Shown here in pieces: positions 4,180 through 49,671 of a stretch of DNA of 64,000 nucleotides. Both the position numbers and the translations under genes were made by a program. How positions within the stretch are numbered: position 1 is the stretch's first letter; each line of letters begins with the position of its first letter. The stretch is from Kangiella sp. (GTDB taxonomy: Bacteria > Pseudomonadota > Gammaproteobacteria > Enterobacterales > Kangiellaceae): positions 53,642 to 117,641 of the forward strand of contig JANQSG010000018.1 in assembly GCA_028284185.1 (NCBI GenBank). Direction: 5' to 3'. The notes below the pieces were generated by a model that was not told the origin of the DNA, searched no databases, and saw nothing but the letters and a program-made list of their open reading frames with translations.

Positions 4180-4251
4180 ACTCCTGCGGAAGCAGGAGTC
4201 CAACAATAGAAATGTAACATGGTTAAGGTGGATCCCTGCTTTCGCAGGGAT
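4180..4251. repeat. Two REP-like hairpins (ACTCCTGC-GGAA-GCAGGAGT and ATCCCTGC-TTTC-GCAGGGAT) in the parA-parB spacer
   Basis: Perfect 8-bp stems read directly at 4180-4199 and 4232-4251. The second hairpin type recurs at 41400-41419, with a decayed copy near 49062-49085. Confidence 0.6.
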
Positions 4252-34982: not shown

Positions 34983-35085
34983 TAGCTACCTTATGCGAAG
35001 AAACTCTACAGGCATAGGATTTAGGTGTTAATTATGATAAAGTTGCGCCCTATTTTTGTTATCTCCAACGATTGAGGATTCAGGA

Positions 35086-36087: not shown

Positions 36088-36118
36088 AAAAGCCCAGCAT
36101 TTGCTGGGCTTTTTTATT
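36088..36118 (+). terminator. rho-independent terminator after mdh
   Basis: AGCCCAGC-ATTT-GCTGGGCT hairpin followed by TTTTTT. Confidence 0.8.
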
Positions 36119-36340
36119 TTTAAAGTAAATTGAATTTTTTTGCATCTAAATTGAGAACATTATGACTCTCATAGATAAACCAATATTATTTATAAATGCT
36201 GGTTTCTTATTGGTTTGGAAACTTAATTGTTACAAAGATTAATCAATAGACTTGATCAAGTTGGAATGAGACTTTCAGACAGAAGAGATAATGAGCGATG
36301 GCTTTGGCTATCAACTCTTCTGATCAAAAGGCTTTTACTA
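36110..36340 (+). repeat. Direct repeat A, copy 1 (about 230 bp, includes a hairpin indel of about 40 nt)
   Basis: Aligns by eye with 38051-38238. Shared strings are TTTTTATTTTTAAAGTAAATTGAATTTTTTGCATCTAAATTGA, AAACTTAATTGTTAC, ATTAATCAATAGACTTGATCAAG.TGGAATGAGACTTTCAGACAGAAG.GATAATGAGC.ATGGCTTTGGCTATCA.CTCTT.TGATCAAAA.GCTTTTA. Confidence 0.85.
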
Positions 36341-36386: not shown

Positions 36387-37628
36387 ATGAAAATAAAAAT
36401 TCTACAACTAATTGCACTATTCTTTTTACAGGGCTTTTTTAGCAATGCTTATGGACAAACATCATTATGCAAAGACAATAGGAACTGGGAGACAATTCGG
36501 GATGAATATAAAGCTAAAATCTCCTCATTCGTAAAAAATAATGATCATAGAGGTTTGGGAGATTACCTGATTAATCAAACACGATATTTTTATTGTGCAG
36601 TACCGAGAAAACAAAGACTCCCTTTTTTGGATGATTTCATAAAAAACACCCCTCAAATAGATTATCTTTTGGGGCTTCATCAAAGTGAAGTAGCAGCTAC
36701 TAAAGAACCCTATGGTAAAGTAGGGCCAAAGCTTTACGGTAGGGCGATATGGCACCTTAATATTGCAGGAAGTAAAGGAATTAAAGAGGCGTATAAACAT
36801 ATAGGCGATATTATCCTGAAAGCACCTAGCATAGGCTATCCACGCTATAATGATTATGCCTATGTTTATGATATTATGAAATCTTTGGACTGGAGTGCTT
36901 ATAAGTTTGAAGATGAAGAAGAAAAGAAAGCGGCAGCTTATAGTTATTACATTTTCTACAAGCAATCCGGCTGGCCTGCTGATTATTATTCAACCGTAGC
37001 AGGCTCAAAATGGAAAAGCCTGGATCAGAAAGTCCAAAAACAATCGGTGGAAATGCAGCTTAAAGCTTATGAAGTCGGTAAAAAGCCAAAAGCTCTGTTT
37101 TTGGCAGCTGCGTCATTATACGCGGCTGTAACAAAAGATGCTGCAAATAAAAAAGAAAGATTATTGCAGTGGGTAAAAGAACTGGATAGTTTAAATTATG
37201 ACAAAACATACATTAAACATTTTATACCATTTTTAAATCGCTTTTACCCGAACGATTCAGTGCTGACAAAATGGAAAGAAAAAAGAAAAGCAGAGTTGGA
37301 GAATGTATCCGAAGGAGATAAACTGATTTTTCTTAACGGCTTTCATTTCCCGCAAAATAGTGACCATACCTGGAGAAAAGATTATAAAGGGCTATATGAA
37401 AGCAGTCTCTATGCTATTGTTGAGTTTGTTAACCCTAAAAACGGTAAGTTTAAAGTCAGAATCGAAGGAGATATGGGTATTGATGACGATAACATTCCCC
37501 GCTTATATAGCGTAGACAGTGCCGGAGCCAACAAGAAAGGATGGGACAGTTACAATGACCAGCATATTTATGACCCCTATATCTGGGTATCGCCCAACGA
37601 CCTGCGTTGGTGGAAGTCTGAGGAGTGA
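36387..37628 (+). CDS. hypothetical secreted protein (413 aa)
   Basis: Signal peptide MKIKILQLIALFFLQGFFSNAYG. Lys/Tyr-rich and AT-rich coding. No recognised domain. Lies between the two copies of repeat A. Confidence 0.6.
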   Translation: MKIKILQLIALFFLQGFFSNAYGQTSLCKDNRNWETIRDEYKAKISSFVKNNDHRGLGDYLINQTRYFYCAVPRKQRLPFLDDFIKNTPQIDYLLGLHQSEVAATKEPYGKVGPKLYGRAIWHLNIAGSKGIKEAYKHIGDIILKAPSIGYPRYNDYAYVYDIMKSLDWSAYKFEDEEEKKAAAYSYYIFYKQSGWPADYYSTVAGSKWKSLDQKVQKQSVEMQLKAYEVGKKPKALFLAAASLYAAVTKDAANKKERLLQWVKELDSLNYDKTYIKHFIPFLNRFYPNDSVLTKWKEKRKAELENVSEGDKLIFLNGFHFPQNSDHTWRKDYKGLYESSLYAIVEFVNPKNGKFKVRIEGDMGIDDDNIPRLYSVDSAGANKKGWDSYNDQHIYDPYIWVSPNDLRWWKSEE

Positions 37629-37694: not shown

Positions 37695-37948
37695 GGGCAA
37701 TTTGGATAATCAAGACTACAAAAATTGTTAACATTCCAAATACGCCAAACAGCCCCGTTAAATTATCTCCCGGTAAGGACAGTATTGCTGGGATAAATAA
37801 TACTGAAATCACCTTCCTATCACAATCATCAACACCATCGAGGCAAAAAATCCAAATGTCGTCAAAGTGGGCCGGAAAAATAACGACAACATAATCATAT
37901 AACCTGCTGAGTGAATCTTGCCAGCCTTTATCAACTAAATTGTAACAA
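37695..37948 (+). pseudogene. Decayed 3' relic of a beta-lactamase-fold serine hydrolase gene (paralog of the 44835..48770 C-terminus)
   Basis: The stop-ridden plus-strand frame reads ..NQDYKNC*..KYAKQPR*..GQYCW....NVVKVGRKNNDNIII*..ILPAFIN*. The intact gene reads NQGYGYFWW..SYFAASAQGGGGQYII..MVVVTAHDNDN..ILPAFIN*. The last 36 nt plus the downstream tail match at the DNA level. Confidence 0.45.
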
Positions 37949-38008
37949 TAATAAACAAGCTGCTACCAAACATTATGAAAATCTAAACAATGAGAAAATA
38001 TGTTTTAT
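37913..38008 (+). repeat. Tail repeat, copy 1 (last codons of the hydrolase gene plus about 60 nt downstream)
   Basis: ATCTTGCCAGCCTTTATCAACTAAATTGTAACAATAATAAACAAGCTGCTACCAAACATTATGAAAATCTAAACAATGAGAAAATATGTTTTAT matches 48747-48840 at most positions, as judged by eye. Confidence 0.7.
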
Positions 38009-38050
38009 TTAAATAAAATAATATTTTGTTAGAAAGCTGATTTTTATCGG

Positions 38051-38238
38051 TTTTTTTATTTTTAAAGTAAATTGAATTTTTTGCATCTAAATTGAAACTA
38101 TTGTGACTCTTATAAGAAACTTAATTGTTACGAATATTAATCAATAGACTTGATCAAGCTGGAATGAGACTTTCAGACAGAAGTGATAATGAGCTATGGC
38201 TTTGGCTATCAGCTCTTTTGATCAAAAAGCTTTTATAC
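38051..38238 (+). repeat. Direct repeat A, copy 2
   Basis: See copy 1. By my estimate about nine in ten positions are identical outside the indel. Confidence 0.85.
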
Positions 38239-38459
38239 TGATTATTGACCGCTATCAGTCTATGAACAGGCAGTTATTAACATTAATTAGCATGGCAGTT
38301 GATAGTTTTATATGGAGTAGAGCAGTATCAGGAAGGTGCTCGTTACTATCGAAGAATCTGAACTAACGCAAACACTTTAAAAAGACTGTTTTAAACATAA
38401 GCGCCCGTGTTTTTCAGTCAATAATATTAAATAGGGTGATTAGATTAAAGGTAATAAAA

Positions 38460-38870
38460 ATGAAAAAGATTATTCTTATAGCATTGGTTGTTTCTGTTTT
38501 GTCGGCTTGTCAGTTTCTGCCTCAGGGTGATTACATTAGACCTTCTGATATATTGGCTGATAGAGATAAATTAATGGGCACGGTTGTAAACGTTACTGGT
38601 TTTGTAGTTTGTAATGGTGATTTTTGTCAAGTGTATGAGAAGAAATCAAGAATAGGAATACCGGAAGGGGCTAGAGTAGGCCTAAAAATAGATAAACTTC
38701 CCCATGCAGATAAAAAGTTTTTTATGAATGACTGTACCATGTCTGCAAAGGATATGTGTACTTTGAAGTTGACAGGACAATTAAAAAAAGGGGCTCTTCC
38801 ATCTACTCCTGATATTCAAGTAACAGCTATTCAGAAACTGGGAGTTACTGGTTTATTAGGTTCATTCTAA
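38460..38870 (+). CDS. hypothetical lipoprotein (136 aa)
   Basis: Lipobox in MKKIILIALVVSVLSAC. Start set at the ATG at 38460 rather than the GTG at 38436. Several Cys residues. No recognised family. Confidence 0.6.
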   Translation: MKKIILIALVVSVLSACQFLPQGDYIRPSDILADRDKLMGTVVNVTGFVVCNGDFCQVYEKKSRIGIPEGARVGLKIDKLPHADKKFFMNDCTMSAKDMCTLKLTGQLKKGALPSTPDIQVTAIQKLGVTGLLGSF

Positions 38871-38998
38871 ACAATTAGAATTATAGGTGGGTGAAAACCT
38901 CTAATATCATCCTTATGATTATAAGTTTTAAACCATTCTATTTTTAATATGTAAAGAGGATTAGTTAGTGAATGTGGGGTGTGCCTAGTTAACACTCC

Positions 38999-39042
38999 AC
39001 TGGCTTTTACTATTAAAAAATATTCCCTTAGAAAAAATTAAT
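38999..39042 (+). repeat. Partial third copy of the 3' end of repeat A, upstream of the CPBP gene
   Basis: GGCTTTTACTATTAAAA is a 17-nt exact match to 36330-36346. It is followed by related TATT..AAAAATTAAT. Confidence 0.5.
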
Positions 39043-39112
39043 CTCAATAACGGAAAAATAAGAATAGCAAGAAAATTACCTGTTCTTTATTCGTACAGAC
39101 AAGAAGCTCTAC

Positions 39113-39823
39113 ATGGCGACAAAAGATAGTAGATCAAGATTGTATAAAATAAAAATATTGGCTGAAATTTTATTGGTGTTGACAGTCGTTTTTGGTATTA
39201 AATGGATTACAGATTATTTTAAAATTATTGGCGCTGGATCAATAGCAATTTGGTTTGGAATAATTACCGCCACCTTTTTTATGAAGCAAAGAAAGATTCG
39301 TTGGTATGATTTTGGACTTATGTGGCCAAAAGGAAGAAAACAATGGCTTATTCAAATAGGGTTGGGTTTTGTTGCAATTATTTCTATAATTTTTATCACA
39401 GCATTAATACTTTTTGTGATAGAGCCCATTTTTGGAATAGAACGAGCTCCAGATGCTGCCGATCGTTTCAACTTCTTTTTGGGAAAGCCTATAGTATTTA
39501 TAACTTATCTGGTAACTATTGTCTGGTTTGGTGCTGGTCTAGGAGAAGAGCTACTTATGAGAGGATTCGTGTTAAATCAATTAAAATGCTTTATAGGAAA
39601 TTATAAACTAGGATGGGTAGTAGCTATTATTCTACATTCTATCCTATTTGGATACATGCATAGCTATCAAGGATCTGCTGGCATGATTATTACAGGATTT
39701 ATTAGTTTTTTCTTTGGTTTAATTTATTTATTTTCCGGACGGAAACTTTTTCCAGTAGTTTTTGCCCATATTATTTTTGATACTACTACCATGCTAGCTT
39801 TCTACCTTAATAATGGAGCATAA
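39113..39823 (+). CDS. CPBP family intramembrane glutamic endopeptidase (CAAX protease/Abi-like)
   Basis: GLGEELLMRGF (EExxxR), FGYMHSY (FxxxH) and FAHIIFD (HxxxD/N) in a multi-TM protein. Confidence 0.8.
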   Translation: MATKDSRSRLYKIKILAEILLVLTVVFGIKWITDYFKIIGAGSIAIWFGIITATFFMKQRKIRWYDFGLMWPKGRKQWLIQIGLGFVAIISIIFITALILFVIEPIFGIERAPDAADRFNFFLGKPIVFITYLVTIVWFGAGLGEELLMRGFVLNQLKCFIGNYKLGWVVAIILHSILFGYMHSYQGSAGMIITGFISFFFGLIYLFSGRKLFPVVFAHIIFDTTTMLAFYLNNGA

Positions 39824-39906
39824 GAATAATTTCTATTCTTTTAAGTCAGAAATATTTAAGCCAAACAGATCACTAAAGTACTATAATTATTTTAAAGGAG
39901 TTCACT

Positions 39907-41349
39907 ATGAACAAGCTAATAATTTCATTGCTTATTGTTTTATTATTAACAACACAAGTGGGAGCGGACGAAAAGAAAGAAAAAGAAACAAAAGAAAAAC
40001 CAGCAGTTATTTTTTCTACCTATTATGGAGGTGCCGGTACTGATGACTGCGATGCAATCGCTGTAGACCTTGTCGGGAATTCATACCTAGGTTGTCATTC
40101 AAATACGCTGCGCCTGCCCGGCGGAAGTGAGCAGGCATACAAGTTTGGCGGCAAAATGGATGCGTTTGTTGTAAAACTGAACAAACAAGGCAATAAGGTA
40201 AATTACCTGACTCATTTGAGGGGTTCCAAGTGGGAAGCTGTACAAGGATTGGCCACAGACTCAGCGGGTAACCTCTACGCAGTGGGGACCACTTACTCAC
40301 ATGATTTTCCTGTAAGTGCTGGTGCATTTCAAACCACTTTCGGAGGCAAAAGCGATGCGTTTGTAGTGAAACTTAACCCTGATGGAAAAGTGGCATGGTC
40401 AACATTTTTGGGGGGAAGTGCTGACGAGGATGGTCGAGATATTTCTATTGATCAACAAGGCAGAGTGCATATTGTAGGGCGCACAAAATCAAGCAATTTC
40501 CCAACCAAGAATGCACTGCAGATTCAATCGGGAGGGGGAATTGACGTATTTTTTGCAACGCTTGATGCTGACGGGAAAATGATTGCCGCCTCCTACTTAG
40601 GCGGCATCGGTGATGATATTGGTGCTGCAATCAAACTAGACAAAACTGGACGAAGATACCTTAGTGGCACTACTGATTCTTCAGATTTCCCTGTAAAGAA
40701 CGCATTACAAGCTAAACATCAAGGTGATGATGATTTATTTGTAGCGGTAATCAATGAAGCAGGTTCGATTCTTGAATTTGCCAGTTACCTGGGGGGAAGC
40801 GGAACCGATAAAGGGTATGATATTGGTTTAATGCCTTCTGGTGATTTGTTGGTTATGGGAGGCACCAAGTCAGAGAACTTTCCAACCACAGAGGGTGCTT
40901 TTCAGAAAATACTATCCGGTGAAAGTGACATCTTTGTTGCTCGGGTTAACCTGCAGGAACCGCATCTTGTCTACTCGACTTTTGTGGGGGGAGAGAAAGG
41001 CGAGGAACCTAAAAGACTTGTCGTTGATCATAATGGCAGGGGCTATGTCGTTGGTAAAACCGCCTCGCACAATTTCCCTACGACTAATGGTTTACAAATA
41101 AAGTTGCAGGGAAGAGCCGACGCATTTGTTACGGTACTCGACCCTACGGGAACAAGTCTTGCCTACTCCAATCTTTTTGGCGGAGGAGGTTTAGACGTCT
41201 TTGAAGATGTTGCTATCGGTGCTGATACTACTTTAACCATGTCAGGTTTATCAAACTCTACGAATTTCCCATTGCTAAATCCTCTACAGAGTACCTTCAA
41301 GGGGGGACGATTTGACATAATAGTAACGCGTATTACGATTCCCTATTAA
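39907..41349 (+). CDS. secreted SBBP-type beta-propeller repeat protein (seven blades)
   Basis: Signal peptide, then seven units of about 58 aa each. Each unit has (S/T)(Y/F)LGG...D.G..I..D..G..Y..G.T.S.(N/D)FP....A.Q.....G..DAFV.KL. Confidence 0.8.
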   Translation: MNKLIISLLIVLLLTTQVGADEKKEKETKEKPAVIFSTYYGGAGTDDCDAIAVDLVGNSYLGCHSNTLRLPGGSEQAYKFGGKMDAFVVKLNKQGNKVNYLTHLRGSKWEAVQGLATDSAGNLYAVGTTYSHDFPVSAGAFQTTFGGKSDAFVVKLNPDGKVAWSTFLGGSADEDGRDISIDQQGRVHIVGRTKSSNFPTKNALQIQSGGGIDVFFATLDADGKMIAASYLGGIGDDIGAAIKLDKTGRRYLSGTTDSSDFPVKNALQAKHQGDDDLFVAVINEAGSILEFASYLGGSGTDKGYDIGLMPSGDLLVMGGTKSENFPTTEGAFQKILSGESDIFVARVNLQEPHLVYSTFVGGEKGEEPKRLVVDHNGRGYVVGKTASHNFPTTNGLQIKLQGRADAFVTVLDPTGTSLAYSNLFGGGGLDVFEDVAIGADTTLTMSGLSNSTNFPLLNPLQSTFKGGRFDIIVTRITIPY

Positions 41350-41399
41350 GAGAGTAAATGTTAACGCAAAGATTAACTCTTGCCTGATTTTTAAATTTG

Positions 41400-41453
41400 A
41401 TCCCTGCTTACGCAGGGATGATAACCAATCTTAGATTCCAACTTTCATTGGAA
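41400..41453. repeat. REP-like hairpins (ATCCCTGC-TTAC-GCAGGGAT and TTCCAA-CTTTCA-TTGGAA)
   Basis: Stems read directly at 41400-41419 and 41436-41453. The first is the same family as 4232-4251. Confidence 0.55.
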
Positions 41454-41462
41454 CGATATTTG

Positions 41463-41570
41463 ATATTAAATGAACCAATCTCCTTTTTGCTTCGTCTTGT
41501 TAGTAAAGGCATAAAATAAACAGTATGAAAACGAGTCGCGAAGAGTTTTCAGCACAAGCAGGCAATGAAG
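41463..41570 (+). repeat. Duplicate of the ECF sigma promoter and first ~15 codons (copy 1, orphan)
   Basis: Matches 49106-49217 and carries a 9-nt deletion relative to it. Similarity ends abruptly after GGCAATGAAG. Confidence 0.85.
41471..41496 (+). promoter_or_regulatory. ECF-type promoter motif TGAACC-N16-CGTC (orphan copy)
   Basis: TGAACC at 41471-41476, a 16-nt spacer, then CGTC at 41493-41496. Both hexamer-like elements are identical to the copy at 49114-49139, while the spacer differs. Confidence 0.4.
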
Positions 41571-41620
41571 CTATTTCCACGAGCTGGATGGCAACAAGCA
41601 AATGTGCTTTGTATAGTTGA
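41525..41620 (+). pseudogene. Truncated 31-codon stub of the ECF sigma gene
   Basis: MKTSREEFSAQAGNEAISTSWMATSKCALYS* compared with the intact MKTSREELLVISAQAGNEVALA... Confidence 0.6.
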
Positions 41621-41684
41621 ATAAAGCCTATTCACAAGATTTTGGGTCATTGGGTTCAGAATTTTTAATTGATGTTTATAGATA

Positions 41685-43820
41685 TTATTGACTGACAGTC
41701 AATTCCACCACTTCTTTTTTAGCGGCCACTTGTTTGGTTATTAACAGTTGGGTTTGATTGACATCGGTCAGGTAATCGACGTCTTCACGCACCGCCCCCA
41801 ATACAGTAAACGTTTCACTGTCCAGATCATAGGACCACAATTGGTGATTGCTGTTGATGGCGTATATCGTATTGTTTCGTATCACGAAGGTGGCGGCCCG
41901 GTCTCCTTGATTGTTTAAGGCTGTAATGGGTTGCGGTTCAGCGGGCCCAGGTTGCCAAAATTGATCCAACTGATCCTTGTAAATCAAGCGGCCATCGGCG
42001 GTTTTCAGCGCCCATTGGATGGATTCATCGGTGATCACTCTGAAGGTTGATTGGATCAAATCGTATTCAACGAATTGGATGATGCCTCGTATGCGTACCA
42101 GTAATAAGGCTTGCTTGTTCTCACTGTCCCACTGGAACAGTTGCACCACAGAATGTGGCATTGGAAAATCTTGTTGCTTACCGTCCAGATGAACTTGGGT
42201 GAGTACGCCATTGGCGTTGACCAACAGGCTTTGGCCGTCTTTCGCCCAATCAATGCCACGGATATAGGTGTCGGTAGGAAAGTGGGTGAGTTGTCGTGGT
42301 GTTTGGCCATTGCTGACCCACAGTTGCTGTTCGCCAGATCGTTTTGACCAGAAAGCAATCAACTCGCCATCGGGTTGGAACATTGCATAATCCTCACCAA
42401 GGATGGAACGCTCAAAAGGTGTGTATGTCTCAGTCGCTGCCATTTGATTGCTTGCGTCGTCGGTCAATGTATCCAAAGGCATTAACACAATGTCACTGTC
42501 ATACGCCCCTTTGATCATGAGCAAACGGTTGCCTTCAGGGTGAAACACGGGTTGAATCATCTGGTCGGTAAAGGGCAGGTTAATTTTATCGATTTGACCA
42601 TCGTATGAAAGAGTGAACAGTTGTCTGCCAGTGCTGAAGATCAGTTGGTCATTCAACGGGTCAAAATTCGGACGGATGCGACGAAATTTGGCAATCTCTG
42701 GCGGCTGCTTGATCAAGTGACTGGATAACAGGCTGCCGTCAGGTTTGAGCATTTCGATGTATTGCTGACCATCGCTGTGGATGCGGTTCACCGCAAGCAA
42801 ATCTTTTTGCGCAGAATAAGCATAGTCGATGAGGGTGCCGTCGGTTGGGTTGTACAGGTCGGTGCTGGTGTTGTTACTGATTGAATAGTTAATCAGCCTC
42901 CAGCGCTTGGTTTGCCTTTGTAACAGGGCTATGTTGTCATCGCCGATCCATTGGGGTTTGACGGTTTTGTATTTTTTGCATTGCAGCAGCACGTTCGGCT
43001 GCTGTGGGTTTTGTAAGGCTTCGGTAAAATCCAAAGACACCAAATCAAAGCAATCCGTTTGGGTCACCGGTTCATCACAGGCTTCGGTGGCAAAAAACAC
43101 CAGTTGCTGACCATCCGGTGAAAAGTCATGACTGCCATAAGCACCCCAATCTTTGGTCAGTTGGATCTCTTGTTGGGTCTCGATGTGTTTGGCCCAAACC
43201 TTATTGATGCACAACTTACCTAAATACCGATGGAATACAATGTATTGACCGTCCGGTGAATAGCTTGCATCAAACTCCTTGTCGTCAGTGGCGGTCAGTG
43301 AGCGTAAGGTATCAAAAGTGATTGTGGATGATGGTTCAGGTGCCAGGAACTTGGCCCCCAATACCCCCAACAGCAAAATGGCAGCAGCAACAACCATCGG
43401 TTTATATGCTGACCTTGAAGTTTGAGGCTGATTGGCTTTCTCAGAGCTGCTGTCATCAAGACCATGACTGTCTAAAGTGTTGGGTCCGCTCGGGTCGGTA
43501 TGATCATGCCACCTGACATCGCACTCCAGGCTGTAACCTCGTTTGGCATGGGTTTTGATGTAGGCTTGGCCTTTGCCATCATCGCCAAGCGCCCGTCGCA
43601 GTTGGGCGATGCTTCGTTGTAAGGTATTGGGTGAAACGATGGTGTCTGGCCAGACCTGGGCCAACAAATCATCTTGACTGACCACCTGGCCTTGATTTTC
43701 CGCCAGACAGGTCAGTACCGCCAGTGCTTTGGGTGCCAGAGTTTGGGTTTGTTGGTTTTGGGTGATTTGATTTCTGGATAAATCAATATAAAAACCACCG
43801 ATCCAATACTGTTTTGTCAT
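41685..43820 (-). CDS. CadC/ToxR-like membrane-bound transcriptional regulator with a periplasmic TolB-like (PD40) beta-propeller domain
   Basis: N-terminal OmpR/PhoB-type winged helix (LAPKALAVLTCLAENQGQVVSQDDLLAQVWPD...LQRSIAQLRRALGDD...GYSLE). One TM (MVVAAAILLLGVLGAKFLA). PD40 motifs YSPDGQYIVF, FSPDGQQLVF and FQPDGELIAF. Start set at MTKQYWIGGFYIDL (ATG at 43820). Confidence 0.8.
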   Translation of the reverse strand: MTKQYWIGGFYIDLSRNQITQNQQTQTLAPKALAVLTCLAENQGQVVSQDDLLAQVWPDTIVSPNTLQRSIAQLRRALGDDGKGQAYIKTHAKRGYSLECDVRWHDHTDPSGPNTLDSHGLDDSSSEKANQPQTSRSAYKPMVVAAAILLLGVLGAKFLAPEPSSTITFDTLRSLTATDDKEFDASYSPDGQYIVFHRYLGKLCINKVWAKHIETQQEIQLTKDWGAYGSHDFSPDGQQLVFFATEACDEPVTQTDCFDLVSLDFTEALQNPQQPNVLLQCKKYKTVKPQWIGDDNIALLQRQTKRWRLINYSISNNTSTDLYNPTDGTLIDYAYSAQKDLLAVNRIHSDGQQYIEMLKPDGSLLSSHLIKQPPEIAKFRRIRPNFDPLNDQLIFSTGRQLFTLSYDGQIDKINLPFTDQMIQPVFHPEGNRLLMIKGAYDSDIVLMPLDTLTDDASNQMAATETYTPFERSILGEDYAMFQPDGELIAFWSKRSGEQQLWVSNGQTPRQLTHFPTDTYIRGIDWAKDGQSLLVNANGVLTQVHLDGKQQDFPMPHSVVQLFQWDSENKQALLLVRIRGIIQFVEYDLIQSTFRVITDESIQWALKTADGRLIYKDQLDQFWQPGPAEPQPITALNNQGDRAATFVIRNNTIYAINSNHQLWSYDLDSETFTVLGAVREDVDYLTDVNQTQLLITKQVAAKKEVVELTVSQ

Positions 43821-43977
43821 AGGTGAATCTATTTGAGCATTGGTCTCAATTGTAACTAAATTAACAATAGCTACCAAAATAATATTTCAGTATCAGCCAA
43901 AAATCAGCAGAACTTCAGGTATTTTTAATTGTGTGCCACTTAATATTGGTGGCTTAATAAGTGAGCACCTGAATCCG

Positions 43978-44838
43978 ATGAAGAAAAAATTATTCATAGT
44001 ATTTTTATTTTTGCAGCCCTTAATCGGCCTTGCTGCCAGCGAGCGAACAGCTTATGAAATGCCCAGAACACACGTTATTCCAATCCATGATTCAACGTCA
44101 GACAAACAGTACGAACTGTACATCAAGCTACCAGAAAACTATGTTGCAGAAGAAGACAGTGTCTATCTCGTGATCTATTTCACTGATGCCGCGTGGCAGA
44201 TCGAAATGTTATCTGCTACCACGGCATTCATGATGGAAAACGCCATTTTGGTTGGTATATCCTGGCAAAAAGACCTGGATGAAGCAATCATTAAGGAGGT
44301 GGGTGAACATGCCAGTCGCTTCAGCGATTATTCCATCCGGACATCCAATGACCCAGACCGTCAAGCCAAGTATCATTTTGGTCAAGCCAAAAACCACCTG
44401 ACTTTTATCCGCAACGACGTGATCAAGTACGTGGAAAACAACTACCGAACCGATCCTGCCAACCGCACTTATTTTGGTTATTCCTTGGGCGGATTATTTG
44501 GTGCTTACGTCCTGGCAGCGCAACCGAACACCTTCAAAAATTACATCCTTGGCAGCCCATCTCTGAAGCGCGATAACCCTACGCTTGCAGCACTTAAACC
44601 AGATCCGGCAACCATTGATGGTGGTCTGAAGGCCCATGTTTATATTTCCTATGGCAGTTTGGAACAGGAAAGGGCTGCGCCGATTAAGGCATTTACCGAC
44701 CTGATGAAAAGCAGATACGGTCAGCGCCTGTCGGTCACGCCTGCCGTGATTGAAGGCAGCCATCAGACCGCTTTTCCGTTGACTGCGGTGAACAGTGTGA
44801 AATGGCTGGTCAACTTGACGCCAGGAGAACAACAATGA
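43978..44838 (+). CDS. secreted alpha/beta hydrolase, putative esterase family (IroE/Fes-like fold)
   Basis: Signal peptide MKKKLFIVFLFLQPLIGLAA and a nucleophile elbow FGYSLGG. Start set at the ATG at 43978. Its stop overlaps the next start (ATGA). Confidence 0.7.
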   Translation: MKKKLFIVFLFLQPLIGLAASERTAYEMPRTHVIPIHDSTSDKQYELYIKLPENYVAEEDSVYLVIYFTDAAWQIEMLSATTAFMMENAILVGISWQKDLDEAIIKEVGEHASRFSDYSIRTSNDPDRQAKYHFGQAKNHLTFIRNDVIKYVENNYRTDPANRTYFGYSLGGLFGAYVLAAQPNTFKNYILGSPSLKRDNPTLAALKPDPATIDGGLKAHVYISYGSLEQERAAPIKAFTDLMKSRYGQRLSVTPAVIEGSHQTAFPLTAVNSVKWLVNLTPGEQQ

Positions 44839-47800
44839 AACTCCAATTGATTTTTGTGGTACTGCTTATGGTGTATTCGACCAACAGCCACAGTGATACA
44901 CAAAGAGAATTTCCAGTCCTCAAAGGCCCCCTTATGGGACAAAAGCCACCAGGCATGGTGGCGGAACCTTTTGCCCCTGGCATCATCTCCAAAGCGGGCT
45001 GGGAGCTTGAGGGCGTGTTTGCTCCTGGCATGCAAGAGTTTTACTTCACTACACGCAACGGTAACGGCAAATCCAGTATGGTGGTCGGCTTACGCCAGCA
45101 CAATAATGTCTGGAAGAAATACATTGAATTCAAACGTCGTGGAGAAGTTACGTTTTCACCAGATGGCAAACGCATGCACATGGCCCAAGGGTATAAAGAT
45201 CGCATCGGTGATGGCTGGTCAAAGTTAAAAAGTCTTGGTTCCCCGTTTGAAGACTTCCGCATCATGCGCCTGACGGCTTCGTCAAAAGGAACCTATGTAT
45301 TTGATGAAGCAACTAGAGATGGAAATGGTGTTATTCGCTATTCACGCCTGATAAACGGTAAGCGTGAAGCACCGAGGCCTTTTAGTAAAGAGATAAACAC
45401 GGGTAAATGGAGCGCTCATCCCTTCATTGCTCCAGATGAGTCTTACATTATTTGGGACAGTGAGAGAGAGGGCGGATATGGTGATAGTGATCTGTATATT
45501 AGTTTTCGACAACAAGATGGTTCATGGGGATCTGCCATCAATATGGGTGAGCAAGTTAACTCTCCCCAGTGGGATGCCTATGCAACCGTCACGCCAGACG
45601 GCAAGTACATCCTTTTTAATAGAGGCATTGATGACAACAATGAGAACGTAGACATCTACTGGGTGGATGCACAAATTATTGAGACCCTCAGGGCTAAAGA
45701 TAAAGGGTGTTGTTTCGAAGAAAATAATGGCCCCGCACCGGAGGCAACAGCCGCCCAAGCCAAGCGCTCGTTCAGGGATATTCCTGATCTCAAAGAAGCC
45801 TTTATCGATGCAGCGCCAACGCATAGAAAAGACGGTATATCCGTTGGTGAGTTGGGTGTCGATGGTGGCAATAAAACGATGATTGTCAAGCTGGCTGAGG
45901 AAATCGCTGACAACAAGCATGGTAACTACGACAGCCTGCTCATCGCCCACAAGGGCAAGCTCTTATTTGAATCCTATTATTTACGCGGCCGCATCAACCT
46001 GCCCCATTTCCAAGCGTCAGCGACTAAAGCCTACACCAGCTTGGCACTCGGCCGTGCTATCCAGTTGGGTTATCTGACCATGGCCGATTTGGACAAGCCA
46101 TTGGTGAGTTTTCTCAAAGATCTGGACCCAACAAAATTTGTCGAGGGTGTAGAAAAGATCACCCTCCACAAAGCGATGACAATGAGTTCGGGACTTAGCA
46201 TTACGGAAGAACAGCTTAACGAATTCAGGAAAAATCCTGATCAGTTAAAAGGCCAGGGCCAAGTTCAAGTTTATCTTGAGCGCAGTGCGCCTGTTAGTTC
46301 AGAGTCTCAGAAATTTGACTATAAAGGAACTGATCCAGACATGGTGATGCAAGTCATTGAGGCCGTCGTGCCAGGCACCGCCCAGGATTTCATCAAAAAT
46401 GAAATTCTCGACAAAATGGGCATCATGAATTATGGCTGGCGGACTAATGTTAGTGGCCTGCCAGAAGCGGGTGCTCGTGCGAAAATGACTTCGCGCGATA
46501 TGGTCAAATGGGGAACCTTGGTCAACAACAAAGGTAAATGGAATGGTGAACAGCTTATTTCAGCAGATTTTCTAGCGAAGGCCACCAGTGGAATTACTCA
46601 GCCTACAGAAGATTGGCAGCCCGAAACCTATCGCTACGGTTATTTTTGGTATCAAACGAATATAATAGTCGGCGATAAAAGCTATCAGGCCAATTTAGCT
46701 TGGGGTGGAGGCGGGCAGCACATCATAGTGCTTGAAGAGCTTGACTTAATTATTGCGATCACTGGTCATGACAGGGAAGATACCATAATGACTCAGGTTT
46801 CAAAAAACATCATACCTGCGTTTGCTAAAGATAAATTCCCAGTCCTGGAAGGCCCTTATATTGGGCAAAAGCCTCCTGGGTTAACACCTAAAGTTTTTGC
46901 TCCTGCTATTGCCTCGACAGAATATCGTGACTGGGGCGGTAGCTTCACGCCGGACATGAAAGAGTACTACTTTACGAGGAGAAATAACAAAACAGGAAAG
47001 TCATCGAAATATGTTTTTAAATCCGAGAATAATCGGTGGTACGAGTCAGCAGTGGATTGGGGGGGCTTTATCTCGCCTGATGGTAAAACTATGTATTCCA
47101 AAAAGAAGTATAGAGAGCGCACAGATGACGGTTGGTCAGAGTTAAAAAGTCTTGGGCCCTTGTTTGAAGAATTCCACATCATGCGCCTGACGGCTTCGTT
47201 AAAAGGAACCTATGTTTTTGATGAAAGAGATGAAATCGGCACCATTCGATATTCTCGAATAATAGATGGTAAGCGTGAAGAACCGAAAAAATTTGGTAAA
47301 GAAATTAACACTGGTAAATGGACCGCTCACCCCTTCATTGCTCCAGATGAGTCTTACATTATTTGGGACAGTGAAAGAGAAGGCGGATATGGTGATAGTG
47401 ATATGTATATCAGTTTTCGACAGCCAGATGACTCATGGGGTGCCGCCATTAATTTCGGGGATAAAATAAACACAGATGGCGAAGACGGTGGGGGGTACGT
47501 CACGCCAGACGGAAAATATCTTTTCTATTGTCGCCGTTGTAGCCCACCAGATTTTGAAATCATGTGGGTGGATGCGCAGATTATCGAGAGCCTTAGGCCT
47601 AAAGAGAGCAGTTTCAGCAGCTTTATTGCGGCAAATGTCGAAGAAAATAATGGCCCCGCACCGGAGGCAACAGCCGCCGAAGTCAAGCTCTCATTTAGGG
47701 ATATCCCTGATCTCAAAGAAGCTTTTATCGATGCAGCGCCAACGGATAAAAAAGACGGTATTCCCGTGGGTGAATTGGACGTTGATGGTGGCAATAAAGA

Positions 47801-48770
47801 CATGATTGTCCAGCTGGCCAAGGAGATCGCTGAAGGTAAGCACGGAGAGTTCGACAGCCTGCTCATAGCCCATAAGGGCAAGCTCTTATTTGAATCCTAT
47901 TATTTGCGCGGCCGCATCAACTTACCTCATTTCCAAGCGTCAGCGACTAAATCCTACACCGGTTTGGCACTCGGCCGTGCTATTCAGTTGGGTTATCTGA
48001 CCATGGCCGATTTGGACAAGCCATTGATCAGCTTTCTGAAAGATCTGGATCCAACAAAATTTGCGGAGGGCGCAGAAAAAATCACCTTGCATCAAGCATT
48101 GACCATGACCACGGGTATTCGCATCAGTGATGAAAACTGGAAAAAAATGCAGAAAAACCCAAGAAGGTTAAAAGGTCAGGGACAAGTTCAGGCACTTTTT
48201 GAGTATAGCACTCCTATTACTGCAGAGGCACAGGTGTTTCGTTACAGCGCCGGACCTCAATTAGTGATGCAAGTGATTGATGCTGTCGTACCGGGGACGG
48301 CTAAAGATTTTATAAAAAATGAATTCCTCGGCAAAATGGGCATCACGAACTATGATTGGCAGACTGCCGTTAGCGGACTACCAGAATCTGGTTGGAAGGT
48401 AAGCGTAACATCACGAGATATGGCCAAAATTGGAACATTGGCCATGAACAAAGGTCGATGGAAGGGTGAACAGCTGATTCCAGAAGCCTTCATCACTCAA
48501 GCGATCAGCAGGATCAACTATTCTGGTGATGAGGATATTTTCGGCGGTGGCAAAGATGTCTCTAATCAGGGGTATGGTTATTTCTGGTGGAGCGGAGATT
48601 TGAGAGTCGGCAATAAAAGTTATTTCGCCGCATCGGCTCAGGGTGGTGGCGGTCAGTACATTATTCTGATCGAGGAGCTTGACCTGATGGTTGTGGTTAC
48701 TGCTCATGACAACGATAACCGTACCCTGCAAATAATCGCAGAGAGGATCTTACCAGCTTTCATCAATTAA
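44835..48770 (+). CDS. exported 1311-aa protein with two tandem [TolB-like PD40 domain + beta-lactamase-fold serine hydrolase] modules
   Basis: Signal peptide MKLQLIFVVLLMVYSTNSHS. PD40-like FSPDGKRMH/VTPDGKYILF and ISPDGKTMY/VTPDGKYLFY. SxxK nucleophile motifs HFQASATKAYT and HFQASATKSYT, each followed by a WGGGGQH / QGGGGQY box. Start set at the ATG at 44835. Confidence 0.85.
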   Translation: MKLQLIFVVLLMVYSTNSHSDTQREFPVLKGPLMGQKPPGMVAEPFAPGIISKAGWELEGVFAPGMQEFYFTTRNGNGKSSMVVGLRQHNNVWKKYIEFKRRGEVTFSPDGKRMHMAQGYKDRIGDGWSKLKSLGSPFEDFRIMRLTASSKGTYVFDEATRDGNGVIRYSRLINGKREAPRPFSKEINTGKWSAHPFIAPDESYIIWDSEREGGYGDSDLYISFRQQDGSWGSAINMGEQVNSPQWDAYATVTPDGKYILFNRGIDDNNENVDIYWVDAQIIETLRAKDKGCCFEENNGPAPEATAAQAKRSFRDIPDLKEAFIDAAPTHRKDGISVGELGVDGGNKTMIVKLAEEIADNKHGNYDSLLIAHKGKLLFESYYLRGRINLPHFQASATKAYTSLALGRAIQLGYLTMADLDKPLVSFLKDLDPTKFVEGVEKITLHKAMTMSSGLSITEEQLNEFRKNPDQLKGQGQVQVYLERSAPVSSESQKFDYKGTDPDMVMQVIEAVVPGTAQDFIKNEILDKMGIMNYGWRTNVSGLPEAGARAKMTSRDMVKWGTLVNNKGKWNGEQLISADFLAKATSGITQPTEDWQPETYRYGYFWYQTNIIVGDKSYQANLAWGGGGQHIIVLEELDLIIAITGHDREDTIMTQVSKNIIPAFAKDKFPVLEGPYIGQKPPGLTPKVFAPAIASTEYRDWGGSFTPDMKEYYFTRRNNKTGKSSKYVFKSENNRWYESAVDWGGFISPDGKTMYSKKKYRERTDDGWSELKSLGPLFEEFHIMRLTASLKGTYVFDERDEIGTIRYSRIIDGKREEPKKFGKEINTGKWTAHPFIAPDESYIIWDSEREGGYGDSDMYISFRQPDDSWGAAINFGDKINTDGEDGGGYVTPDGKYLFYCRRCSPPDFEIMWVDAQIIESLRPKESSFSSFIAANVEENNGPAPEATAAEVKLSFRDIPDLKEAFIDAAPTDKKDGIPVGELDVDGGNKDMIVQLAKEIAEGKHGEFDSLLIAHKGKLLFESYYLRGRINLPHFQASATKSYTGLALGRAIQLGYLTMADLDKPLISFLKDLDPTKFAEGAEKITLHQALTMTTGIRISDENWKKMQKNPRRLKGQGQVQALFEYSTPITAEAQVFRYSAGPQLVMQVIDAVVPGTAKDFIKNEFLGKMGITNYDWQTAVSGLPESGWKVSVTSRDMAKIGTLAMNKGRWKGEQLIPEAFITQAISRINYSGDEDIFGGGKDVSNQGYGYFWWSGDLRVGNKSYFAASAQGGGGQYIILIEELDLMVVVTAHDNDNRTLQIIAERILPAFIN
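44908..46830 (+). repeat. Intragenic tandem duplication, module 1 (about 1.9 kb)
   Basis: Starts at FPVLKGPLMGQKPPG. It stays in register with module 2 at offsets of 1911-1926 nt. Confidence 0.85.
46834..48767 (+). repeat. Intragenic tandem duplication, module 2
   Basis: Starts at FPVLEGPYIGQKPPG. Several patches are near-identical to module 1, for example 47332-47425 against 45421-45514. Confidence 0.85.
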
Positions 48771-48840
48771 ACTGTAAAAGTAATAAATAAGCCGTTACCA
48801 AATATTATGAAAATTTAAACAATGAGAAAACATATTTTAT
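48747..48840 (+). repeat. Tail repeat, copy 2
   Basis: ATCTTACCAGCTTTCATCAATTAAACTGTAAAAGTAATAAATAAGCCGTTACCAAATATTATGAAAATTTAAACAATGAGAAAACATATTTTAT matches 37913-38008. Confidence 0.7.
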
Positions 48841-48979
48841 AAGGTAAATTCACCCGACGCTAAAAAGCGAACTGATTAACGATGTTATATTTAATTCAGT
48901 AAGTGTAGGTTGAGGTGAAGCATGAACCCCAACAAAAAGGTTTTCTTTGTATCGTCGGGGTTCACGGGCTCATCATTGA

Positions 48980-49085
48980 CCTACGTCATTTCCGCGTAGG
49001 CGAGCGACCAAAGGAAGTGCCCATAGTGAATCTATAGCCAGCCCAATTCTATCTATTAGATGGATTCGCGCTTTCGTGGGATGAC
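48980..49085. repeat. Degenerate REP-like elements
   Basis: CCTACG-N9-CGTAGG at 48980-49000. GGATTCGCGCTTTCGTGGGATGAC at 49062-49085 resembles a decayed GATCCCTGC-TTTC-GCAGGGAT unit. Confidence 0.4.
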
Positions 49086-49105
49086 AACGGTACGTTAAAA
49101 CGTAT

Positions 49106-49217
49106 AAATTAAATGAACCTCTTTTAATTTTCCTACGTCTTGTTAGTAAAGACATAAAATAAATGGTATGAAAACGAGTCGTGAGGAGTTATTGGTGATT
49201 TCAGCACAAGCTGGCAA
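49106..49217 (+). repeat. ECF sigma promoter and 5' end (copy 2, attached to the intact gene)
   Basis: See 41463-41570. Confidence 0.85.
49114..49139 (+). promoter_or_regulatory. ECF-type, probably autoregulated promoter TGAACC-N16-CGTC
   Basis: TGAACC at 49114-49119, a 16-nt spacer, then CGTC at 49136-49139, about 30 nt upstream of the sigma start. It fits the general AAC-N16/17-CGT pattern of ECF promoters. Confidence 0.55.
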
Positions 49218-49671
49218 TGAAGTTGCTCTTGCTGAACTCTATCAAAACTTTTATCAGCCATTAGTCAAATTTGCTTATAAGCTTTGCGGTCATCACGACT
49301 GGGCACAGGATGCAGTGCAAGATGTTTGGTTGGATGCGGCCAGGAAGCTACGCAAACTTAATGATCCAAAAGCTTTTCGGAGTTGGATGTTTCGTGCAGT
49401 GCGCTGGCGCTGTATCGATTTAGCCAGAAAAGCAGGCAAAAGTCAGCAACTTAATGGTGAAGAAAATATCGCTCAAGAAATGCAAACGCAAGATTTTGGT
49501 CTGCTGAAATTGATCGATGAGTTACCAGAAGTCGAACGTCAGGCAATCTATTTGTTTTATCTGGAAGAAATGTCACTTGCCGAAATATCAATTGTGTTAG
49601 AGGTACCACAGGGCACAATAAAGTCACGATTAAATCGAGCAAGAAATCATTTAAAAGAATTACTAACCTAA
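49168..49671 (+). CDS. RNA polymerase sigma-70 family, ECF subfamily
   Basis: 167 aa. Region 2 is DWAQDAVQDVWLDAARKL. Region 4 helix-turn-helix is MSLAEISIVLEVPQGTIKSRLNRARNHLKE. Confidence 0.9.
   Translation: MKTSREELLVISAQAGNEVALAELYQNFYQPLVKFAYKLCGHHDWAQDAVQDVWLDAARKLRKLNDPKAFRSWMFRAVRWRCIDLARKAGKSQQLNGEENIAQEMQTQDFGLLKLIDELPEVERQAIYLFYLEEMSLAEISIVLEVPQGTIKSRLNRARNHLKELLT

What the first reader, a model, noticed from the sequence alone, without database searches (positions are those of the whole stretch)
41428..49217. A ~7.5-kb gene block bracketed by a direct duplication of an ECF sigma promoter plus its first codons
Bases ~41463-41570 and ~49106-49217 are same-orientation copies. They share ATTAAATGAACC, then CGTCTTGTTAGTAAAG(G/A)CATAAAATAAA, then ATGAAAACGAGTCG.GA.GAGTT..TTCAGCACAAGC.GGCAATGAAG. 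Weaker similarity runs left across a REP-like element in both copies. Copy 2 continues into an intact 167-aa ECF sigma gene. Copy 1 has a 9-nt deletion, loses similarity right after GGCAATGAAG, and ends as a 31-codon stub. The block between them holds the CadC-like regulator, the esterase and the double hydrolase, and looks more GC-rich by eye than the AT-rich genes to its left. I found no integrase, transposase or tRNA. A repeat of more than 100 bp is too long for a classical target-site duplication. It looks like an integration or recombination event that rebuilt the 5' end of its target gene by a mechanism the sequence does not reveal.
Basis: seen in the sequence. Interest (0 to 1): 0.72.

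Follow-up and report, generated by a model that had tools for sequence, protein, structure and literature searches.

The report
Recombination scar duplicating a sigma-factor promoter
A 108-base copy of a stress sigma-factor gene's promoter and first ~16 codons sits 7.6 kb upstream of the real gene; it is most likely a scar from imprecise recombination that stacked two diverged versions of a highly variable Kangiella locus, not the footprint of a new kind of mobile element.

Summary
The repeat is real. Bases 41465-41572 and 49108-49224 are direct copies, 86% identical, with one in-frame 9-nt gap. Each holds an intact ECF promoter (TGAACC-N16-CGTCTT), the leader and the first codons. Copy 2 runs into the intact sigma gene; copy 1 is a 31-codon stub.

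The window is Kangiella-like. Nine relatives have mdh, about 1 kb, then sigma, with no stub. Here that interval is 13 kb.

The block between the copies is a three-gene cassette also found in an unrelated genome. Its GC3 is 0.47-0.53, against a core of 0.38.

The sigma repeat is one of four repeat pairs in the 64-kb window, and all four lie in this interval. One is a 3' stub of the cassette's own hydrolase gene, 3.5 kb left of copy 1. Another is a duplicated stretch of mdh-downstream sequence.

The copies are as diverged as orthologues of different species. Their differences fall at synonymous and otherwise unconstrained sites. This favours two alleles that diverged as working genes and were then joined illegitimately at sigma codon ~16-20.

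No integrase, transposase or tRNA gene is present.

It is an ordinary kind of event, but well resolved. The intact stub promoter faces the cassette's regulator gene; any effect is untested.

The parts
35056..36063 (+). malate dehydrogenase gene (mdh), the conserved left border of the variable interval
   Evidence: Pfam Ldh_1_N and Ldh_1_C. It is 93-96% aa identical to L001-L004. It lies immediately upstream of the variable interval in every relative whose contig reaches that far.
36100..36337 (+). repeat m: sequence just after the mdh terminator, left copy
   Evidence: Self-BLAST gives 36218-36337 vs 38116-38235 at 93% and 36100-36173 vs 38042-38114 at 86%. The alignment has a 43-nt indel.
36387..37628 (+). 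413-aa ORF of unknown function, bracketed together with stub 'a' by m and m'
   Evidence: No Pfam or NCBIfam hit. No counterpart in the relatives.
37906..38008 (+). stub 'a': the last 11 codons of a hydrolase gene (reads AE*ILPAFIN*) plus 70 nt of downstream sequence
   Evidence: 83.5% identical to 48738-48840, E = 2e-25. Codon comparison shows 5 synonymous changes and one nonsense codon.
38042..38235 (+). repeat m': second copy of the mdh-downstream sequence
38436..41349 (+). cargo X: 144-aa putative lipoprotein, CAAX (Rce1-like) protease and SBBP beta-propeller protein
   Evidence: Pfam hits. GC3 is 0.26, 0.24 and 0.37. The nearest named SBBP relatives are Flavobacteriaceae at 51-57%.
41400..41419 (.). 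REP-like perfect palindrome ATCCCTGCTTACGCAGGGAT
   Evidence: -14.5 kcal/mol, z = -5.6. Similar palindromes lie at 4180-4199 and 4232-4251.
41465..41572 (+). copy 1 (h): sigma promoter (-35 TGAACC at 41471-41476, -10 CGTCTT at 41493-41498), leader, and 16 codons that correspond to sigma codons 1-19 with a 9-nt in-frame deletion
41525..41620 (+). 31-codon stub ORF that starts at the duplicated sigma ATG
   Evidence: Profile homology fades between 41572 and 41585.
41685..43877 (-). wHTH + PD40 (CadC-like) regulator, convergent with the stub promoter. The likely true start is at 43821.
   Evidence: Pfam Trans_reg_C and PD40. Best homologues are 74%, 71% and 67% identical (the last from Marinicella). 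The BLASTN match to L024 covers exactly 43821-41685.
43840..44838 (+). esterase gene (likely start at 43978)
   Evidence: Pfam Esterase. Collinear with the 286-aa esterase of L023.
44802..48770 (+). 1322-aa hydrolase made of two fused PD40 + beta-lactamase-fold units. The internal repeat is 45191-46773 vs 47108-48711.
   Evidence: Pfam. Internal repeat at 74-77% nt identity. L023 has a single 661-aa unit.
48738..48840 (+). a': the intact hydrolase 3' end plus 70 nt, partner of stub 'a'
48841..49107 (.). spacer Y, with palindromic REP-like units and no detectable relative
   Evidence: No significant similarity to m, m' or the sequence upstream of copy 1. No match in the relatives or in plasmids.
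49108..49224 (+). copy 2 (h'): the functional sigma promoter (-35 at 49114-49119, -10 at 49136-49141), leader and first 19 codons
49168..50068 (+). ECF sigma gene (167 aa) and a downstream DUF6768 gene, presumably its anti-sigma factor. This is the conserved right border of the variable interval.
   Evidence: Pfam. 77-84% aa identical to the Kangiella orthologues.

Best explanation
The mdh-to-sigma intergenic interval is a recombination hot spot in this Kangiella lineage. The window holds two diverged versions of the stretch 'hydrolase 3' end to sigma 5' end', stacked head to tail. Version A (37.9-41.6 kb) is truncated at both ends. It runs: hydrolase 3' stub, mdh-flank copy m', cargo X, sigma promoter, then about 16 sigma codons. 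Version B (41.6-49.7 kb) is intact. It runs: regulator, esterase, hydrolase, spacer Y, promoter, sigma. The two were joined by one illegitimate junction, between sigma codon ~16-20 and the 3' flank of the regulator gene (41572-41585). The other side of the exchange used ordinary homology. Two routes give this result. One is homology-facilitated illegitimate recombination of linear DNA. The other is a single crossover of a recircularised fragment that carried only the promoter and 5' end. No dedicated mobile-element enzyme is needed. Shown here: the anatomy, the absence of the block from relatives, the foreign composition of the cassette, and the substitution pattern. Inferred: that A and B came from different lineages, the order of events, and the enzymology. 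A by-product is that copy 1 is still a complete ECF promoter. It should fire when the sigma factor is active, transcribing a 31-codon ORF and running antisense into the regulator gene. That effect is untested.
For: All four repeat pairs in the 64-kb window lie within 36.1-49.2 kb. They are m/m', a/a', h/h' and the internal hydrolase duplication. Nine relatives have mdh, then 0.9-1.3 kb of variable small ORFs, then sigma. None has a stub, and only the two ends of the interval are conserved. The cassette is a conserved three-gene module in an unrelated 4-Mb contig, with homology limited to the genes, and it is GC3-rich here. Copy 1 vs copy 2 identity (86%) is no higher than each copy vs the L004 orthologue (88-89%). 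Differences fall in columns that also vary among orthologues: 13 of 45 variable columns differ against 2 of 63 invariant ones, Fisher p = 3e-4. The probability of so few differences in invariant columns is 0.022 if the stub had decayed neutrally in place. Polarised changes are 4 in copy 1 and 4 in copy 2. In the coding parts of both stubs there are 8 synonymous and 3 non-synonymous nucleotide differences (P = 0.013 under in-place decay; 4e-4 under full neutrality). Homology to the sigma profile stops at 41572-41585, and no other sigma fragment exists in the window. No integrase, transposase or tRNA gene was found. Experimental precedent: in E. coli, single crossover of recircularised fragments produced 109-950-bp duplications of the homologous locus, and rarer true HFIR events were also seen (PMC3240628).
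Against: Only one genome carries this arrangement, so neither parental allele has been observed. The statistical support for divergence under constraint rests on about 100-nt segments, with P values of only 0.01-0.02. At least one further event is needed to explain the loss of most of version A's cassette, and the origin of spacer Y is unexplained. No clear microhomology could be assigned at the junction. Whether Kangiella is naturally competent was not examined.
Confidence: 0.5

Rival explanations
1. In-place tandem duplication. An ancestor with mdh-m-413aa-cassette-a-m'-X-promoter-sigma duplicated the segment from the regulator's 3' flank to sigma codon ~16-20. Most of the left cassette copy and the right copy of m'-X were later deleted, and the copies then diverged by about 15% in the same genome.
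For: It needs the same number of events as the best explanation and no second lineage. The h|regulator junction is exactly what a tandem-duplication joint would look like. The hydrolase gene itself contains an internal tandem duplication, so duplication does occur here.
Against: A stub that has been non-functional since the duplication should carry changes at constrained sites. Only 2 of 15 differences lie in ortholog-invariant columns (P = 0.022), and copy 1 has no more derived changes than the functional copy (4 vs 4). Coding differences are mostly synonymous. Spacer Y shows no homology to any part of 38009-41433, so a simple deletion cannot produce it. The three repeat pairs differ in divergence (93%, 83.5%, 86%). 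Large tandem duplications are normally unstable (established knowledge).
Confidence: 0.2
2. Remnant of a site-specific integrative element. An island or prophage carrying a replacement promoter and 5' end integrated inside the sigma gene, as Rac does at the 5' end of ttcA and e14 does in icd, leaving the displaced native 5' end as copy 1. The integrase and the rest of the element were later lost.
For: The topology matches attL and attR around foreign cargo with a restored target gene. Element-borne replacement segments are typically diverged at silent sites, as seen here. Precedents are the 163-bp icd' left by e14 and Rac at the 5' end of ttcA (PMC6379469).
Against: The 10 largest ORFs from 39.1 to 52.7 kb, which include the block's three genes, carry no recombinase domain. 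ORFs of 25 aa or more in spacer Y were listed but not searched for relics. The block consists only of a chromosomal-type cassette that is collinear with one in an unrelated genome. A stub of that same cassette's hydrolase lies outside the supposed element. There are no plasmid matches to the cassette's right border, and the regulator matches only large replicons of over 1 Mb. The longest exact stretch shared by the copies is 16 nt and lies in the promoter, not at the junction end.
Confidence: 0.08
3. A duplicated promoter kept by selection. Whatever its origin, copy 1 is maintained because it places the acquired cassette under the ECF sigma factor, either by antisense transcription into the regulator gene, by read-through into the esterase and hydrolase genes, or through the 31-aa peptide.
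For: The -35 element, the -10 element and the 16-nt spacing are intact while the spacer sequence has diverged. The same motif is conserved upstream of orthologues in other genera. No terminator is predicted between the stub and the convergent regulator gene.
Against: No second genome is available to test conservation. The predicted transcript has no unusual structure (z = +0.87). The intact motifs are equally explained by recent truncation of a working gene. Reaching the esterase gene would need 2.2 kb of untranslated antisense read-through, which Rho would probably stop (inference).
Confidence: 0.1

Closest known systems
Orphan or displaced module arrays left by sequential displacement (T6SS effector-immunity arrays in Vibrio cholerae; Rhs/CDI orphan toxin arrays)
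   Same: New modules enter by recombination anchored in a conserved flank. Older versions are pushed aside and remain as truncated stubs that repeat the conserved sequence. [quoted passage not shown] HFIR has been proposed as the mechanism (PMC5361080).
   Different: Here the cargo is an ordinary regulator/esterase/hydrolase cassette, not a toxin-immunity pair. The repeated anchor is a sigma-factor promoter and 5' end. Only two layers are present, and only one genome shows them.
Homology-facilitated illegitimate recombination, and single-crossover integration of recircularised fragments
   Same: One homologous and one illegitimate joint, with no recombinase gene. In E. coli, single-crossover events gave 109-950-bp direct duplications of the homologous locus flanking the insert (PMC3240628). 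That matches the 108-nt repeat around a 7.5-kb insert.
   Different: Those are laboratory events with near-identical homology. Here the repeats are 14% diverged. The process is inferred from a single end product.
Prophage integration that restores the target gene (e14 and phage 21 in icd; Rac at the 5' end of ttcA)
   Same: A direct duplication of a gene end brackets foreign DNA. The gene stays intact, and the displaced end remains as a stub that differs mostly at silent sites (PMC6379469).
   Different: There is no integrase, no phage genes and no evidence of excision. A relic of the inserted cassette lies outside the bracket.
Autoregulated ECF sigma promoters
   Same: Copy 1 has the full GAAC(-35)-N16-CGTC(-10) architecture, which is conserved upstream of this sigma/DUF6768 operon across genera.
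   Different: Copy 1 is not followed by a sigma gene. It faces the 3' end of a convergent regulator gene.

Membership tests
Transposase target-site duplication | Short (about 2-14 bp) exact direct repeats immediately flanking an element that has terminal inverted repeats and a transposase gene | tested here: not met
   The repeat is 108 nt and 86% identical. There is no transposase domain. No inverted repeat lies at the block ends.
Site-specific integrative island or prophage (attL/attR) | An integrase or recombinase gene inside or next to the element | tested here: not met
   Pfam scan of the 10 largest ORFs from 39.1 to 52.7 kb found no recombinase. Further Pfam and NCBIfam scans of flanking ORFs found none either.
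Site-specific integrative island or prophage (attL/attR) | Direct repeats at both ends that share an exact core at the crossover point | tested here: inconclusive
   Direct repeats are present. The stretch nearest the junction, TTTCAGCACAAGC(A/T)GGCAATGAAG, has one mismatch, and the longest exact run (16 nt) lies in the promoter.
Site-specific integrative island or prophage (attL/attR) | An empty site in relatives that differs only by lacking the element and one repeat copy | tested here: not met
   All nine relatives lack the block, but they also lack the whole 13-kb interval content, including the left flank.
Site-specific integrative island or prophage (attL/attR) | All element DNA lies inside the bracket | tested here: not met
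   A 3' stub of the cassette's hydrolase gene lies 3.5 kb outside the bracket at 37906-38008.
HFIR or single-crossover (Campbell-type) recombination product | The insert is flanked on one side by a duplicated segment of the homologous anchor, and homology is lost abruptly at an illegitimate joint | tested here: met
   Profile homology to sigma ends at 41572-41585 and is followed directly by the regulator's 3' flank. The duplicated anchor is 108 nt, at the low end of the 109-950-bp range reported experimentally.
HFIR or single-crossover (Campbell-type) recombination product | 3-10 bp of microhomology at the illegitimate joint (usual, not obligatory) | tested here: inconclusive
   The joint can only be placed within 41572-41585, because similarity decays gradually there.
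HFIR or single-crossover (Campbell-type) recombination product | The donor is a related lineage that shares the anchor sequence | tested here: inconclusive
   Interspecies-level divergence and a constraint-like substitution pattern support this, but no donor genome was found.
HFIR or single-crossover (Campbell-type) recombination product | The host takes up DNA by natural competence or conjugation | not tested
   Competence genes were not looked for. The window gives no information on this.
Autoregulated ECF sigma promoter | -35 GAAC and -10 CGT(C) motifs 16-17 nt apart, conserved upstream of the sigma/anti-sigma operon | tested here: met
   TGAACC-N16-CGTCTT is present in both copies. It is conserved in 7 Kangiella orthologues and in the Alteromonadaceae, Pseudoalteromonas and Thalassotalea loci.
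Autoregulated ECF sigma promoter | Sigma-dependent transcription initiation | not testable with these tools
   This needs 5'-RACE or RNA-seq.

The most novel reading that the evidence does not exclude
The conserved borders of the mdh-sigma hot spot (the mdh-downstream sequence and the sigma promoter with its 5' end) serve repeatedly as landing pads for recombinase-independent stacking of gene cassettes exchanged between Kangiella lineages. Each round leaves a live ECF promoter copy. Here that copy wires the newly stacked cassette into the stress sigma regulon, by antisense control of the CadC-like regulator and possibly by read-through into the esterase and hydrolase genes.
Probability: 0.1. 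Interest if true: 0.55.

Novelty: new member of a known kind. Interest (0 to 1): 0.3.

Why it matters
This locus is a clear natural example of how ordinary gene cassettes can accumulate at a chromosomal hot spot without integrases or transposases. They leave gene-end stubs of the kind otherwise described mainly for toxin-immunity arrays and tRNA-linked islands. It is also a caution for annotation. A long direct repeat around foreign genes does not by itself indicate a mobile element, and a promoter-bearing stub can create new, possibly regulatory, transcription. The finding does not open a new mechanism or settle an open question.

Tried and rejected
- **Closer relatives or parental alleles.** The genome-collection scan, two metagenome scans, a homologue search on sigma and contig look-ups were run. 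Only the same strain (L020 and L022, 100% identical) and relatives at 84% aa identity or less were found. No empty site with the SBBP gene next to sigma, and no second stub, turned up.
- **SBBP neighbourhood elsewhere.** The best hit, P0002, sits in an unrelated Bacteroidota-like context.
- **Leftward extension of the repeat.** It is not significant. The hairpins near the -35 are weak, -4 to -6 kcal/mol, and not better than shuffles.
- **Stub transcript as a structured sRNA.** Rejected: z = +0.87, no Rfam hit.
- **Plasmid or phage origin of the cassette.** The regulator matches only large replicons of over 1 Mb, and the right border matches nothing.
- **Spacer Y as a degenerate copy of m/m' or of the sequence upstream of copy 1.** Rejected.
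- **CAAX protease as an ancestral neighbour of the regulator (seen in L024).** Similarity is at family level only, 29% over 90 aa.
- **Further sigma fragments in the window.** None.
- **Flanking repeats around the two other AT-rich lineage-specific inserts (30.2-30.8 kb and 34.1-35.0 kb).** None.
- **Assembly artefact.** Considered unlikely. An independent Logan assembly of the same run spans the stub-regulator junction (L022), and the copies share no exact run long enough to mislead a k-mer assembler. It uses the same reads, however.


Full report
**1. Observation**

The two segments are true direct repeats. Copy 1 is 41465-41572 and copy 2 is 49108-49224. They share 88 of 102 aligned bases and differ by one 9-nt gap. 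Whole-window self-BLAST gives E = 1.6e-23. A nucleotide profile built from eight orthologous sigma genes matches copy 1 at 41465-41585 with E = 4e-29. The profile finds no other sigma-like fragment in the window.

Copy 2 leads into a 167-aa ECF sigma gene followed by a DUF6768 gene, presumably its anti-sigma factor. Copy 1 opens a 31-codon ORF at 41525-41620. In it the codons for LLVI are replaced by a single F codon, an in-frame 9-nt deletion.

The claimed weaker similarity to the left is not significant (z = 1.9).

**2. What the repeat contains**

Alignment with seven Kangiella orthologues, and with orthologous loci from Alteromonadaceae, Pseudoalteromonas denitrificans and Thalassotalea, shows a conserved TGAACC-N16-CGTCTT motif. 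This has the form of an autoregulated ECF promoter. That reading rests on general knowledge of ECF promoters, which have GAAC at -35 and CGT at -10.

- Conservation between species starts exactly at the -35 element. This is why the repeat's left edge falls there.
- The motif occurs only twice in the window, once in each copy.
- Copy 1 therefore keeps a complete promoter, leader, ribosome-binding region and start codon.

**3. Genomic context**

The window is Kangiella-like; its sigma protein is 77-84% identical to sigma proteins of Kangiella genomes. The surrounding gene order is conserved in the relatives whose contigs extend far enough: relA/spoT, RidA, SpoU, DUF418, TehB, LysR, recG, mdh, then a variable interval, then sigma, DUF6768, a second variable spot, SNase, ThrE and a TonB-dependent receptor.

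In nine relatives the mdh-sigma interval is 0.9-1.3 kb and holds one or two small ORFs that differ between species. Only its first ~60 nt and last ~60 nt are conserved. In the window this interval is 13.1 kb. None of the relatives has a second promoter or a stub. The exact arrangement was found only in this one strain.

**4. The block between the copies**

The block holds three genes:
- a wHTH+PD40 (CadC-like) regulator on the minus strand;
- an esterase, divergently transcribed from the regulator;
- a 1322-aa protein made of two fused PD40/beta-lactamase-fold units.

The same regulator/esterase/hydrolase module, with a single 661-aa hydrolase, is collinear in an unrelated 4-Mb contig (L023). 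Homology there stops at the gene borders. The closest regulator homologues are 74%, 71% and 67% identical, the last from Marinicella; none is from Kangiella.

GC3 of the three genes is 0.53, 0.48 and 0.47, against 0.377 +/- 0.053 for the syntenic core. The genes to the left are AT-rich (144-aa ORF 0.26, CAAX protease 0.24) or typical (SBBP 0.37). The SBBP gene's nearest named relatives are Flavobacteriaceae at 51-57%. The 13 kb is therefore a mosaic of at least three compositional classes.

No integrase, transposase, tRNA gene or Rfam family was found.

**5. The finding that changes the picture**

A sensitive self-comparison finds four repeat pairs in the whole 64-kb window. All four lie inside this interval.
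- The sigma repeat h/h'.
- The internal duplication of the hydrolase gene, 45191-46773 vs 47108-48711.
- m/m': 36100-36337 vs 38042-38235, 86-93% identical with a 43-nt indel. This is the sequence that follows the mdh terminator, so the left conserved border of the hot spot is duplicated as well.
- a/a': 37906-38008 vs 48738-48840, 83.5% identical. This is the last 11 codons of the hydrolase gene plus 70 nt downstream. The left copy reads AE*ILPAFIN*.

The layout is: mdh | m | 413-aa ORF | a | m' | X (144-aa ORF, CAAX, SBBP) | h | regulator-esterase-hydrolase(a') | Y | h' | sigma.

So 37.9-41.6 kb is a second, doubly truncated version of the stretch 'hydrolase 3' end to sigma 5' end'. The intact version follows it. 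That is hard to reconcile with a single island entering a naive site.

**6. Age and origin of the copies**

Copy 1 vs copy 2 is 86% identical. That is no closer than copy 1 vs the L004 orthologue (89%) or copy 2 vs L004 (88%).

- Of 15 differences, 13 lie in the 45 columns that vary among seven orthologues, and 2 lie in the 63 invariant columns (Fisher p = 3e-4).
- If copy 1 had been a neutral stub since an in-place duplication, about 41% of differences should fall in invariant columns. The probability of seeing 2 or fewer is 0.022.
- Changes that can be polarised are 4 in copy 1 and 4 in copy 2.
- In the coding parts of both stubs there are 8 synonymous and 3 non-synonymous nucleotide differences. 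P is 0.013 under in-place decay and 4e-4 under full neutrality.

I infer that most of the divergence arose while both versions were working genes. That points to separate lineages, with truncation relatively recent. The segments are short and the P values modest, so this conclusion is favoured but not proven.

**7. Mechanism**

The best-supported reading is homology-anchored but imprecise recombination between two diverged alleles of the hot spot.
- One illegitimate joint lies at sigma codon ~16-20, next to the regulator's 3' flank (41572-41585).
- The other side used a homologous exchange. It could be HFIR of linear DNA, or a single crossover of a recircularised fragment that carried only the promoter and 5' end.
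- In E. coli the second route was the main outcome and produced 109-950-bp duplications of the homologous locus (PMC3240628).
- The result resembles the orphan stubs left by sequential displacement in T6SS effector-immunity and Rhs arrays. [quoted passage not shown]

The m/m' bracket around the 413-aa ORF and stub 'a' suggests an earlier event of the same type. At least one extra deletion is needed to remove most of version A's cassette. Spacer Y remains unexplained.

**8. Rivals**

- In-place tandem duplication followed by deletions needs as many events as the best explanation. The substitution pattern, the lack of homology of Y, and the unequal divergence of the three repeat pairs disfavour it.
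- A decayed integrative element matches the topology, as with e14/icd' and Rac/ttcA (PMC6379469). It lacks any recombinase and any phage or plasmid link, and the external hydrolase stub contradicts it.
- A selected regulatory role for copy 1 cannot be excluded. The promoter is intact, and no terminator is predicted before the convergent regulator gene. There is no comparative support, and the transcript has no special structure.

**9. Verdict**

It is a new example of a known kind of event at a well-defined hot spot, of moderate-to-low interest. The one aspect worth an experiment is whether the live stub promoter affects the cassette's regulator.

Noticed in passing
window 45191-46773 vs 47108-48711: The 1322-aa hydrolase is an in-frame fusion of two PD40 + beta-lactamase-fold units that are 74-77% nt and about 60% aa identical. 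The homologous cassette in L023 has a single 661-aa unit. This is another head-to-tail stacking of diverged homologues at the same locus.
   Followed up: partly
window 36100-36337 vs 38042-38235: The sequence just downstream of the mdh terminator is duplicated (86-93% identical, with a 43-nt indel). The two copies bracket a 413-aa ORF of unknown function and the hydrolase 3' stub. The better-conserved part could encode a peptide of about 38 aa.
   Followed up: partly
window 37906-38008: A hydrolase 3' stub (AE*ILPAFIN*) plus 70 nt of downstream sequence, 10.8 kb upstream of its intact partner. The difference between the two is 5 synonymous changes and one nonsense codon.
   Followed up: yes
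window 30233-30847 (-) and about 34100-34982 (+): Two further AT-rich stretches (GC 0.34, GC3 0.28-0.29) sit between TehB and LysR and between recG and mdh. Relatives have only about 100-140 nt at these positions. Neither has a confident Pfam hit or flanking repeats.
   Followed up: partly
window 4180-4199, 4232-4251, 41400-41419: A small family of REP-like perfect palindromes, (A/G)(T/C)(C/T)CCTGC-loop-GCAGG(G/A)(A/G)T. Two occur as an oppositely oriented pair near 4.2 kb, and one lies just upstream of copy 1.
   Followed up: partly
window 39907-41349: The closest named relatives of the SBBP beta-propeller gene are in Flavobacteriaceae (51-57% aa), and none is in Kangiella. This suggests cross-phylum transfer, although its GC3 is typical of the host.
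   Followed up: partly
window 50168-50905; L025 11021-12697; L037 11631-12851: The site just downstream of the sigma/DUF6768 operon is also variable between species. It holds a DUF1295 gene here and in L001 and L002, a tannase-like gene in L025, a LysR-type gene in L037, and unrelated ORFs of about 205 aa elsewhere.
   Followed up: no
L005 691-760, L006 9940-10010, L007 about 9968-10010: The TGAACC-N16-CGTCTT promoter upstream of this sigma/DUF6768 operon is conserved across several gammaproteobacterial genera. It could be used to predict the regulon of this uncharacterised ECF group.
   Followed up: no
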